Shown here piece by piece: positions 1 to 3,000 of a DNA stretch of 9,267 nt. The stretch's first letter is position 1. Every line of letters begins with the position of its first letter. The DNA is from a virus (taxonomy: Duplodnaviria > Heunggongvirae > Uroviricota > Caudoviricetes). The stretch is from the IMG/VR virus record IMGVR_UViG_2690316142_000005; one strand, written 5' to 3'. The position numbers are program-made.

Positions 1-3000
1 AAATGGTAGTGTCCGCTATTGCCAGTACACCTCATCCATCACCGAAAAAAATTGGCTTTTACACCATTGGCGATAAAAGCATAATGCAGGGTTTGATGAA
101 AAGATTTTGTTCCCCTCATCAGTTGAAAGCACTGCGGGTTAAGGAGTAACACATGACCACTATTACCAAAGAACGTATTGAATTGTTCATTAAAAACCCG
201 CTTGAAAACGGGCTTACCCGTGGTGAACAAATGGAACTGGCACGGATTGCGCTGGCATCGCTGGAAGCAGAGCCGGTTGTGTTCTGGTTTGAAAAATATC
301 AAGAAGGGGCTACGGCATGACGACTTTTACCAGAGAGCAGTTAATAGCTCACGCAGAGGAGACTATTGAAGCACAGAGACTGTGCATACCGGGCACAATC
401 GACCATGACATCATCCGCACATATAAGATGGATATTGCTGTTCTGGAAATCGCACTGGTATCGCTGGCAGCAGAGCCAGCCGGTAAATTGCATGAATACA
501 AACCAGTGGGATATCAGCGTCTGGTCGATGAGTTAACCATGCTGGTAAAGCAGTTAACCTGGCAACTGAGGAAAGCGAAGCCAGACTGCAAATTACCGGA
601 TAAGGCGATGAGTTATCTGGAGCGGAACGGACTGATAAGCGTGGAGGATATTTTACGATGACCTGGCCTGAAGCATTAACAACGGTAGGAATTGCGATGG
701 CGGTGGCGCTGGTGGTGTATTCGATTTGCCGCTGGGGATAAAAACGGTTTGCGGGAAAAGGAGAGTTAAGTAGAATTGCAGCGGGTGCTTGAGGCTATCT
801 GTCTCAGGCATGAACACCAAAAGGCAGATAGAGAAAAGCCCCAGTTAACATTACGCGTCCGGCAAGACGCTTAACATTAATCTGAGGCTCAATCTATGAA
901 CGGCAAATCTAGGTTAGCCTCTTACGTGCCGAAAGGCAAGGAGAAGCAGGCTATGAAGCAGCAAAAGGCGATGTTAATCGCCCTGATCGTCATCTGTTTA
1001 ACCGTCATAGTGACGGCACTGGTAACGAGGAAAGACCTCTGCGAGGTACGAATTCGAACCGGCCAGACGGAGGTCGCTGTCTTCACAGCTTACGAACCTG
1101 AGGAGTAAGAGACCAGGCGGGGGAGAAATCCCTCGCCACCTCTGATGGGTCAGGCATCCTCAATGCACCCACACTTAACCCGCTTCGGCGGGTTTTTGTT
1201 TTTATTTTCAACGCGTTTGAAGTTTTAGATGGTGCCGGAATAGAATCAAAAATACTTAAGTAGCGCGCAGGGAGAAGAGGGATGGACCCCGAACAGGGGA
1301 GTGCTATTTATCTGGAAGGATTCTGTTGATGAAAATCGAAGAATTACGTGAAATTTTTAGTGAAGATGGCCTCTATACTGTGCGCGTTGAGAATGGCGCT
1401 ATTGTCAGCCACTGCCTTCCAGACTACACAATTCTGATAATTCAGCCGTCTTTGCCAGCAGGCACGGGCGGCGCTCTCACGCATTTAAATCTGATTGGTA
1501 CCAGCATCCCCCATGCACTGAAGAACAGGCCGAATGGCTCATTCAGTGTTACCGCAGGCGCGGATGCGAGGTTAAAAAAGCCCTTAGCCTCGACTACCGT
1601 CACTGGATAATCTCCGTCAGGCTCCCTTACTCCGAACGGCCAACGCGTCCGTCCCGCACATTCCAGCAACGGATCTGGAGGTAATGTGCGGGTATTACTT
1701 CGACCTGTTCTGGTACCGGAACTCGGTCTGGTTATCGTTAAGCCAGGCCGTGAATCAATGTCAGCATTCCATAACGGCAGAATACTGGTGGAGCCGGAAC
1801 CAAAAAGCATGCGTAATCTGCCGTCCGGGGTCGTTCCTGCCGCTCGCCAGCCGCTGGTGGAAGACAAAACATTGCTGCCGTTTTTCAGTAACGCACGGGT
1901 GATTCGTGCTGCTGGTGGTGCTGGTGCATTGTCTGACTGGCTGTTGCGCCATATTAAATCCTGCCAGTGGCCACACGGCGATTATCATCACAGCGAAACC
2001 GTCATTCACCGTTATGGTACCGGCGCAATGGTGTTGTGCTGGCACTGCGACAACCAGCTGCGTGACCAGACATCCGAATCACTCGAGCAACTTGCTCATC
2101 AAAACCTGTCAGCATGGATGATTGACGTCATCGGTCACGCAATAAGCGGTACGCAGGAGCGTGAATTATCTCTGGCTGAATTATCCTGGTGGGCGGTCCG
2201 CAATCAGGTGGCGGACGCGCTACCGGAAGCGGTATTACGTCGTTCGCTGGGGTTGCGTGCGGAAAAAATTCGCTCTGTGTACAGTGAAAGCGACATCATA
2301 CCGGGAGAGCAGACAGCCACCAGCATACTGAAGCAGCGCACAAAAAATATTGCGTTACTGCCTCACGTCCACCAGCAACAGAACCCACCACAGGAAAAGA
2401 CGGTGGTCAGCATTGCCGTTGATCCGGAGTCACCGGCTCAGTATCTCCAGCGCCAGAAATCACAACGGGAAGAGATGCCTGTATACACGCGCTGGGTAAA
2501 AACGCAGAAATGCATGACGTGTGGCAATCAGGCAGATGATCCGCATCACATCATTGGTCATGGACTGGGAGGGATGGGAACAAAGGCTGATGATTTGTTT
2601 GTTATTCCGTTATGCCGTAAATGCCGTAACGAACTACATGCCGGAGTAAAAGATTTTGAAGAGAAACACGGCAGTCAGCTGTTGTTGCTGATTCGTTTTT
2701 TAATGCACGCGAGAAATTCGGGTGTTCTGAAGTGGAAAGCATAAATGACCGAGCGCATAGAATTTGTTTTACCTTACCCGCCGACGGTGAACACTTACTG
2801 GCGTCGTCGTGGCAGCACATATTTTGTATCAAAAGCCGGGGAGCGTTATCGCCGGGCAGTGGCGCTTATTGTTCGCCAGCAGCGGCTGAAATTAAGCCTG
2901 TCCGGAAGGTTGGCAATAAAAATTATTGCAGAACCACCGGATAAGCGCCGCCGTGACCTGGACAATATTCTGAAAGCGCCGCTGGATGCGCTGACGCATG

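What the first reader, a model, noticed from the sequence alone, without database searches (positions are those of the whole stretch)
2..34. Window is bounded by a perfect 33-bp inverted repeat that is coding on both ends
Positions 2-34 are the exact reverse complement of 9235-9267. At the right end the repeat is in frame inside the 9108 gene (...TPYTL RCTGNSGHYH). At the left end the same peptide starts at an ATG on the minus strand (complement of 33-35, MRCTGNSGHYH...) with GGTGA just upstream, reading out of the window. So two diverged copies of the same gene segment flank the window in opposite orientation. This could be a real inverted duplication or invertible segment, or a contig that breaks on both sides in a repeat shared by several prophages.
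Basis: seen in the sequence. Interest (0 to 1): 0.5.

Follow-up and report, generated by a model that had tools for sequence, protein, structure and literature searches.

The report
Contig ends inside IS600 copies
The perfect 33-base inverted repeat at the two ends of the window is the outermost tip of the common insertion sequence IS600, where a short-read assembly of a Shigella sonnei-type prophage region stopped; it is an ordinary assembly boundary, not a duplicated gene or a dedicated DNA switch.

Summary
Positions 2-34 are the exact reverse complement of 9235-9267, and chance would give about 6e-13 such pairs.

The interpretation as two copies of a coding segment is wrong. The 33-mer is the non-coding right-end terminal inverted repeat (IRR) of IS600, a 1264-bp IS3-family element. 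It occurs at 4995 places in 2667 of 5426 complete E. coli genomes, always at the edge of an IS600 copy.

Homology to intact lambdoid prophages begins exactly at 35 and ends at 9234-9237. The "shared peptide" is a 14-15-codon read-through into the IS tip that then hits a stop.

Sister draft contigs carry the same junctions but run 31-107 nt into IS600. The repeat length is therefore set by where the assembler stopped.

In closed Shigella sonnei genomes the two junctions lie at two different prophage remnants about 0.67 Mb apart. The window has two N gaps, an exact 1284-bp duplicate and alternating locus-A and locus-B alleles, so it is most likely a chimeric scaffold.

There is no invertase. However, closed genomes show that these IS600 copies recombine with each other and invert DNA. 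All of this is already known biology, so interest is low.

The parts
1..34 (+). Outermost 34 nt of the right end (IRR) of an IS600 copy lying to the left of the window. Its transposase would be on the + strand, reading towards the window. The contig breaks off inside it.
   Evidence: 34/34 identity to IS600 ends in closed S. sonnei genomes. Identical to the end of annotated IS600 in L002 2501-2533. L015 continues the same IS sequence for 107 nt.
9235..9267 (-). Outermost 33 nt of the right end (IRR) of a second IS600 copy lying to the right of the window, in the opposite orientation (transposase on the - strand).
   Evidence: L015, L017 and L018 continue into IS600 for 45-107 nt (the figures for L017 and L018 are read off the printed sequences). 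In L029 a full 1264-bp IS600 (8350-9613) abuts this junction.
35..149 (+). Remnant of a small nin-region hypothetical gene (87 aa in intact prophages), cut by the left IS600. It also lacks 91 bp between 82 and 83.
   Evidence: Alignment to intact prophage L003: homology starts exactly at 35, and 91 nt are missing.
9108..9234 (+). 5' part (42 codons) of a DUF1737-family gene truncated by the right IS600. Read-through adds 14 IS-encoded codons and then a stop.
   Evidence: Alignment to the intact gene in L004: identity through 9237, then divergence. A 57-aa DUF1737 fragment is called at the same junction in closed genomes. Translation.
153..3941 (+). Lambdoid prophage nin/late-regulation genes: 55-aa and 114-aa ORFs, hok/gef (896-1108), DUF968/HNH (1686-2744), RusA (2745-3125) and antiterminator Q (3122 onward). 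This is locus A of S. sonnei, with locus-B alleles at 3052-3524.
   Evidence: Pfam; comparison with L028 and L029.
3942..3983 (.). Run of 42 N, a scaffold gap inside the 3' end of Q.
   Evidence: By the coordinates, L017 spans the gap (its bases 408-452).
4409..5692 (+). First copy of an exact 1284-bp duplicate: DNA methylase gene 4513-5571 and tRNA 5612-5687.
6767..6767 (.). Single N, a scaffold join immediately before the second copy of the duplicate.
   Evidence: Similar single-N joins followed by repeat copies occur in sister contigs L039, L040, L044 and L045.
6768..8051 (+). Second, identical copy of 4409-5692. Most likely the same genomic locus-A segment used twice by the scaffolder.
   Evidence: L017 and the closed genomes have one copy.
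8503..9234 (+). Locus-B-specific DNA (iraM-like gene 8512-8847 on the - strand, and the DUF1737 5' end). In closed S. sonnei genomes this lies about 0.67 Mb from locus A.

Best explanation
The window is a scaffold from a short-read draft assembly of a Shigella sonnei-type genome. Each end stops about 33-34 nt inside a copy of the multi-copy insertion sequence IS600 (IS3 family, 1264 bp).

Both flanking copies present their right end (IRR) to the window, so they are in opposite orientation. That is why the two contig tips are exact reverse complements.

One copy interrupts a small nin-region gene at 34/35. The other interrupts a DUF1737 gene at 9234/9235. The apparent shared peptide is the same IS tip read in one frame for 14-15 codons before a stop. 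The repeat has no function as a 33-mer; its biological role is as the transposase-binding end of IS600.

Shown:
- the identity of the 33-mer with the IS600 IRR;
- its genome-wide multiplicity;
- the exact homology break-points;
- the variable depth at which other assemblies stop;
- full-length IS600 at both junctions in closed genomes.

Inferred:
- that the source is S. sonnei;
- that the internal join between locus A and locus B is a scaffolding artefact.

As a side effect, inverted IS600 copies serve as substrates for RecA-type homologous recombination, and closed genomes show this has inverted neighbouring DNA.
For: - Perfect 33-nt inverted repeat at both edges.
- The 33-mer is found at 4995 places in 2667 of 5426 complete E. 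coli genomes, up to 43 per genome, on chromosomes and plasmids.
- In two annotated examples it is the last 33 nt of an element whose CDS RefSeq names 'IS3-like element IS600 family transposase'. That element is 1264 bp long, runs TGAGGT...ACCTCA, and has a 3-bp duplication GCG.
- IRL and IRR share only 20 of their first 33 nt, so the 33-mer marks the IRR specifically.
- Homology to intact prophages begins at 35 and ends at 9237.
- Four IMG/VR contigs share the right junction and eight share the left. They stop 31-107 nt inside IS600, and in L015 the terminal repeat is 107 nt.
- Closed S. sonnei genomes (Ss046 CP000038, 53G HE616528 and others) have full IS600 copies at both junctions.
- Contigs carrying the window's exact DUF968 and IraM proteins are mostly under 10 kb across thousands of assemblies.
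- Literature: IS600 is one of five IS expanded in all Shigella, with 229-348 IS per chromosome (PMC7373316). Hundreds of repeats fragment Shigella assemblies, and IS-flanked inversions are documented (PMC12795559).
Against: - The source strain's reads and remaining contigs are not available. I therefore cannot show directly that full IS600 copies sit at these two ends in this strain.
- The left end holds 34 nt of IS and the right end 33 nt, so a single k-mer rule does not explain both exactly.
- No complete E. coli genome, and no GTDB species representative, has either junction. The assignment to S. sonnei therefore rests on exact-protein look-ups and on 100% identity of window 1-82 to S. sonnei loci.
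Confidence: 0.95

Rival explanations
1. The 9.2-kb segment is a real, contiguous unit flanked by two inverted IS600 copies in the source strain. This would be a hybrid of prophage remnants A and B made by recombination, which can flip by IS600-IS600 homologous recombination. It would be an IS-bounded invertible or composite-transposon-like segment.
For: - Three independent draft contigs (the window; L015, 6236 nt; and the 8160-nt contig held as L017/L044) all link the locus-A left junction to the locus-B right junction.
- Closed genomes prove that IS600-bounded segments here do invert. In L022 the 13.6-kb IS600-segment-IS600 unit is flipped relative to Ss046.
- Two successive repeat-mediated inversions could generate an A-left/B-right hybrid (inference).
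Against: - Every closed-genome locus listed for the two look-ups (10 for the DUF968 protein, 10 for the IraM protein) keeps A and B apart. They are about 0.67 Mb apart in CP104423.
- The three draft contigs switch from A to B at three different places.
- The window switches back and forth: A to about 3009-3051, B alleles 3052-3524, A again from 3868, then A, B, A, B. It contains N joins and an exact 1284-bp duplicate.
- Sister assemblies show the same single-N concatenation of repeat variants.
- With IRR inward at both ends, the outer ends would both be IRL, which is not a normal IS3-family transposition substrate (established knowledge of IS3 transposition, not tested here).
Confidence: 0.07
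2. One reading: an inverted duplication of a coding gene segment, or a segment inverted by a site-specific invertase acting on the 33-bp repeats.
For: - The repeat is in frame with the DUF1737 ORF on the right, and follows an ATG with a GGTGA upstream on the left.
- A resolvase/invertase-family gene (PF00239) lies about 5 kb beyond the locus-B IS600 in closed genomes.
Against: - The 33-mer is non-coding IS600 end sequence found at thousands of unrelated sites.
- Similarity between the two ends stops exactly at the IS boundary.
- Both frames stop after 14-15 codons.
- The ten main ORFs scanned give no recombinase domain, and the ORF list shows no other long ORF that could be one.
- The observed inversions exchange whole IS600 copies, not 33-bp sites.
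Confidence: 0.01

Closest known systems
IS600 (IS3 family insertion sequence, first described in Shigella sonnei)
   Same: The 33/34 nt at both window ends are identical to the right terminal inverted repeat of annotated IS600 copies. Related closed genomes carry complete 1264-bp elements, with an orfA/orfB frameshifted transposase, at exactly these junctions.
   Different: The window holds only the tips of the element, no transposase. The two copies at these junctions lack matching 3-bp target duplications in closed genomes (TTT/TCC and TAG/GGG). This indicates later IS-IS recombination.
IS-induced contig breaks in short-read Shigella assemblies (the signal exploited by tools such as ISMapper)
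   Same: Contigs end a k-mer-dependent distance inside a multi-copy IS. The same junction is seen with 31-107 nt of IS in different assemblies. PMC12795559 and PMC7373316 describe the phenomenon.
   Different: Nothing essential. Here both ends happen to hit the same IS end (IRR), which produces a perfect terminal inverted repeat.
IS-mediated chromosomal inversions in Shigella
   Same: Closed S. sonnei genomes differ by exchange of the DNA on the IRL side of the IS600 copy next to the window's left end. Three different partners are seen, including a 13.6-kb local flip (L022) and a junction implying an inversion of about 0.67 Mb (L024 and L027).
   Different: These are RecA-type recombination events between whole 1.26-kb IS copies, seen between strains. 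They are not programmed switching of the 9.2-kb window.
Hin/Gin/Pin-type invertible segments
   Same: Only the superficial geometry: a segment between inverted repeats in a prophage.
   Different: There is no invertase in the segment. The repeats are IS ends rather than 26-bp crossover sites, are not unique to the segment, and flank no promoter or alternative-gene arrangement.

Membership tests
IS600 terminal inverted repeat (IRR end) | Sequence identical to the outermost bases of an element annotated as IS600 | tested here: met
   Window 9235-9267 equals L002 2501-2533, which directly abuts the 3' end of a CDS named 'IS3-like element IS600 family transposase'. The same holds in L001. Match is 34/34 to IS600 ends in S. 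sonnei loci.
IS600 terminal inverted repeat (IRR end) | The element is about 1.26 kb, has imperfect terminal IRs beginning TG...and ending ...CA, and makes a 3-bp target duplication | tested here: met
   In related loci, not in the window. The element is 1264 bp and runs TGAGGT...ACCTCA. IRL and IRR match at 20 of 33 positions. TSD is GCG in L002 and GGA for L028 14624-15887.
IS600 terminal inverted repeat (IRR end) | Two-ORF transposase with programmed frameshift (HTH_Tnp_1 + rve domains) | tested here: met
   RefSeq annotation reads 'programmed frameshift'. Pfam HTH_Tnp_1, HTH_21, rve and rve_3 are on the 385-aa product next to both junctions in closed genomes. The window itself holds none of it.
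IS600 terminal inverted repeat (IRR end) | Multi-copy and dispersed across replicons | tested here: met
   4995 places in 2667 genomes, up to 43 per genome, with 870 on plasmids. Three copies lie within 21 kb in L028.
IS600 terminal inverted repeat (IRR end) | Matching 3-bp target duplication around the two particular copies that flank the window (simple insertion) | tested here: not met
   Closed genomes show CCCTTTAATTTT|IS|TCC... and ...TAG|IS|GGG.... This is explained by later IS-IS recombination and does not bear on the identity of the 33-mer.
Site-specific (Hin/Gin/Pin) invertible segment | Serine-invertase gene within or adjacent to the segment | tested here: not met
   The ten main window ORFs give no recombinase domain (ORF list). 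The nearest PF00239 gene in closed genomes is about 5 kb beyond the locus-B IS600 and belongs to other DNA.
Site-specific (Hin/Gin/Pin) invertible segment | Inverted crossover sites specific to the segment boundaries | tested here: not met
   The repeat is an IS end present at thousands of sites.
Composite (IS-flanked) transposon | Two copies of one IS flank a contiguous segment, and the whole unit is bracketed by a target duplication | tested here: not met
   In closed genomes the two junctions lie at different loci. No matching duplications are present. Contiguity in the source strain cannot be tested.
   Homology of each flank to intact prophages stops at the IS boundary. The left flank is a different gene.

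The most novel reading that the evidence does not exclude
In the source strain the A/B hybrid could be real. It would be a 9.2-kb prophage module carrying a true tandem duplication of a DNA methylase-tRNA cassette, bracketed by inverted IS600 copies, and able to flip by IS-IS recombination. That would be a strain-specific IS-bounded invertible prophage segment.
Probability: 0.05. Interest if true: 0.2.

Novelty: already known. Interest (0 to 1): 0.05.

Why it matters
Its main value is as a caution. A perfect terminal inverted repeat on a draft contig, even one that reads in frame with a gene, is the expected signature of a contig bounded by two oppositely oriented copies of one insertion sequence.

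It also marks two IS600 insertion sites: one in a nin-region ORF and one in a DUF1737 gene of S. sonnei prophage remnants. And it flags this scaffold as internally unreliable, because of the N joins, the duplicated methylase and the mixed alleles.

The IS600 copies at these sites are real recombination substrates that have reshuffled S. sonnei chromosomes. That is already well documented.

Tried and rejected
- Both junction sequences were scanned against the GTDB species-representative genomes. Neither matched. In GTDB Shigella falls within the species E. coli (my own knowledge), so S. sonnei would not be represented.
- No complete E. coli genome carries either junction; best coverage is 92-93% and stops at the IS boundary.
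- An exact look-up of the 48-aa ORF 3-149, which spans the left junction, found nothing on record.
- The 82|83 deletion junction was scanned against IMG/VR and gave no match. The window itself is therefore not in that collection, and the 91-bp deletion could not be corroborated.
- I considered whether the TGA shared between the IS tip and the intact DUF1737 sequence (9235-9237) says anything about the insertion point. It only makes the boundary ambiguous by 3 nt.
- I considered a Hin/Pin-type switch because a resolvase-family gene lies near locus B in closed genomes. I rejected it because the repeats are IS ends.
- I considered a composite transposon. I rejected it because the junctions lie at separate loci in closed genomes and no bracketing duplication exists.

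Full report
**1. The observation**

The window's first and last bases form a perfect inverted repeat. Arms 2-34 and 9235-9267 are 33 nt and 100% complementary (sequence). About 6e-13 such pairs are expected by chance.

Both arms run into the window edges, so the repeat is truncated by the window rather than having ends of its own. The ORF from ATG 9108 reads through the right arm. On the minus strand an ATG (complement of 35-33), preceded by GGTGA, opens the same peptide.

**2. What the 33-mer is**

A megablast of the 33-mer against 5426 complete E. coli genomes found it at 4995 places in 2667 genomes. There were up to 43 places per genome, and 870 were on plasmids.

In two annotated examples the match is the last 33 nt next to the 3' end of a CDS that RefSeq names 'IS3-like element IS600 family transposase, programmed frameshift'. 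Reading that element in L002 gives these features:
- it is 1264 bp long (2501-3764);
- it starts TGAGGTGTACTGG... and ends ...CTCAGGCTACCTCA;
- it is bracketed by a 3-bp duplication, GCG;
- its transposase CDS ends at 2544, so the 33-mer (2501-2533) is non-coding terminal repeat.

The two ends of IS600 share only 20 of their first 33 nt. The 33-mer therefore identifies the right end (IRR) specifically. Both window ends carry the IRR, so the two flanking IS600 copies point in opposite directions, each with its right end towards the window.

**3. Where the native DNA stops**

Against intact lambdoid prophages the left flank is homologous from exactly position 35. It lies inside a small 87-aa nin-region gene.

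The right flank is homologous up to 9237, inside a DUF1737 gene. The three bases 9235-9237 (TGA) are shared by the IS tip and the native sequence, so that boundary is ambiguous by 3 nt.

There is no DUF1737-like sequence at the left end. The shared peptide is simply the IS tip read in one frame. L015, a sister contig that extends further, shows that both frames end after MRCTGNSGHYHLFFF*. Gene callers record the resulting 57-aa DUF1737 stump in closed genomes.

**4. The repeat length is an assembly property**

Scanning IMG/VR found four contigs with the right junction and eight with the left. They stop 31, about 45, 47 and 107 nt inside IS600.

L015 (6236 nt) has both junctions, and there the terminal inverted repeat is 107 nt. 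The same biological junction therefore gives repeats of different length depending on where the assembler gave up.

Contigs carrying the window's exact DUF968 and IraM proteins are overwhelmingly 2-10 kb across thousands of assemblies. Only about 90 index blocks for each protein hold a contig longer than 1 Mb.

**5. Source and true genomic context**

Exact-protein look-ups place the window's genes in closed Shigella sonnei chromosomes, including CP000038 (Ss046) and HE616528 (53G) (the organism names for these accessions are from my own knowledge).

- **Locus A.** The left junction (window 1-82, 100% identical) sits here: IS600(+), nin genes, hok, DUF968, RusA, Q, methylase, tRNAs, IS600(-).
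- **Locus B.** The right junction sits here: IS21, RusA, Q, tRNA, an ORF, iraM, the DUF1737 stump, IS600(-).

In CP104423 locus B is about 0.67 Mb from locus A. Full 1264-bp IS600 copies abut both junctions.

**6. The window is a mosaic of A and B**

| Window segment | Follows |
|---|---|
| 1 to about 3009-3051 | locus A |
| 3052-3524 | all 39 differences from A lie here, and this stretch matches B exactly |
| 3868 and 3886 | A alleles again |
| 3942-3983 | 42 N |
| 3984-5571 | A (the methylase, which B lacks) |
| 5572-6766 | B |
| 6767 | single N |
| 6768-8480 | A again, beginning with an exact duplicate of 4409-5692 |
| 8503-9267 | B |

L015 and the L017/L044 contig also join A-left to B-right, but they switch at other shared stretches. 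Sister contigs of the same kind show single-N joins followed by second copies of repeat variants.

The most economical reading is that the scaffold is a linearised path through a repeat tangle shared by two prophage remnants, not one real 9.2-kb locus. A real hybrid made by successive repeat-mediated inversions cannot be excluded without the strain's reads. I give it about 5-7%.

**7. Mechanism and the 'invertible' idea**

Pfam scans of the ten main ORFs give hok/gef, DUF968/HNH, RusA, antiterminator Q and a DNA methylase, and no recombinase. The ORF list shows no other long ORF that could encode one.

The IS600 copies themselves are recombination substrates. Across closed S. sonnei genomes the IRR-side junction (|TCCATCACC) is constant, but the IRL side has three different partners, none with a matching 3-bp duplication.
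- In L022 the whole 13.6-kb IS600-segment-IS600 unit is inverted relative to Ss046.
- In L024 and L027, locus-B upstream DNA is joined through IS600 to locus A. This is the product expected from an inversion between the oppositely oriented IS600 copies of A and B.

This matches published descriptions. IS600 is one of five IS expanded in all Shigella, with 229-348 IS per chromosome (PMC7373316). Hundreds of repeats fragment Shigella assemblies, and IS-flanked inversions distinguish S. sonnei lineages (PMC12795559). Loss of target duplications through IS-IS recombination is a recognised signature (PMC11708052). IS600 is also known to be amplified in some STEC (27 copies in one O121:H19 strain; PMC9397093).

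**8. Comparison, novelty and verdict**

The feature is a member of a known kind in the strictest sense: the IRR tip of IS600, seen twice because a draft contig is bounded by two oppositely oriented copies.
- The defining features of IS600 were all met in related loci: identity to annotated copies, length, terminal repeats, a frameshifted two-ORF transposase, a 3-bp duplication, and multi-copy dispersal.
- The features of a site-specific invertible segment, a composite transposon, or a duplicated gene segment were tested and not met.

Nothing here is new, and interest is low (0.05). The practical lessons are that the terminal inverted repeat is an assembly signature, and that the scaffold's interior should not be trusted as a single locus.

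Noticed in passing
window 4409-5692 and 6768-8051; N at 6767: An exact 1284-bp duplicate (DNA methylase gene plus a tRNA) begins immediately after a single N. Closed genomes and the L017 contig have one copy. Most likely the scaffolder used the same locus-A segment twice.
   Followed up: yes
window 3052-3524 (RusA 3' end and Q 5' half): All 39 differences from S. sonnei locus A cluster here, and the stretch is identical to locus B. A alleles return at 3868 and 3886. This is either a bubble-path chimera or a gene-conversion patch.
   Followed up: yes
window 82|83: 91 bp present in every related sequence examined (E. coli L003, S. sonnei L028, IMG/VR contigs L015 and L039-L045) are missing here. 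The junction 40-mer is absent from IMG/VR. Whether this is a real strain-specific deletion or an assembly error is unresolved.
   Followed up: partly
L019-L029 (closed S. sonnei genomes), IS600 copies around loci A and B: The IS600 next to the window's left junction has three different IRL-side partners and no matching target duplication. L022 carries a 13.6-kb IS600-bounded inversion. L024 and L027 carry a junction implying an inversion of about 0.67 Mb. The middle IS600 (L028 14624-15887) is a clean insertion with TSD GGA.
   Followed up: yes
window 5612-5687, 5788-5864, 7971-8046, 8054-8130, 8144-8220: Five prophage tRNA genes lie downstream of Q and the methylase (CAT, Arg-TCT; CAT, Arg-TCG, Arg-TCT). 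In the related locus L004, RefSeq annotates a tRNA-Ile followed by two tRNA-Arg in the corresponding position. The two clusters are the locus-B and locus-A variants.
   Followed up: partly
window 5693-6506 (ORF 5975-6328): A low-GC (about 0.40) locus-B-specific insert between the tRNA and the iraM region, carrying a 117-aa ORF with no Pfam match.
   Followed up: no
window 3122-4048 with N run 3942-3983: The antiterminator Q gene is interrupted by a 42-N scaffold gap near its 3' end. The 308-aa ORF listed across the gap is not a real product; Q is 273 aa at locus A in closed genomes.
   Followed up: partly
window 896-1108: A hok/gef-family type I toxin gene (Pfam E = 3e-23) in the nin region. 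This is ordinary for these prophages.
   Followed up: no
L040 and L045 (IMG/VR contigs): Other draft contigs carry single-N joins followed by second copies of RusA-Q variants or of the left IS600 junction. This points to a systematic scaffolding habit in those assemblies.
   Followed up: partly
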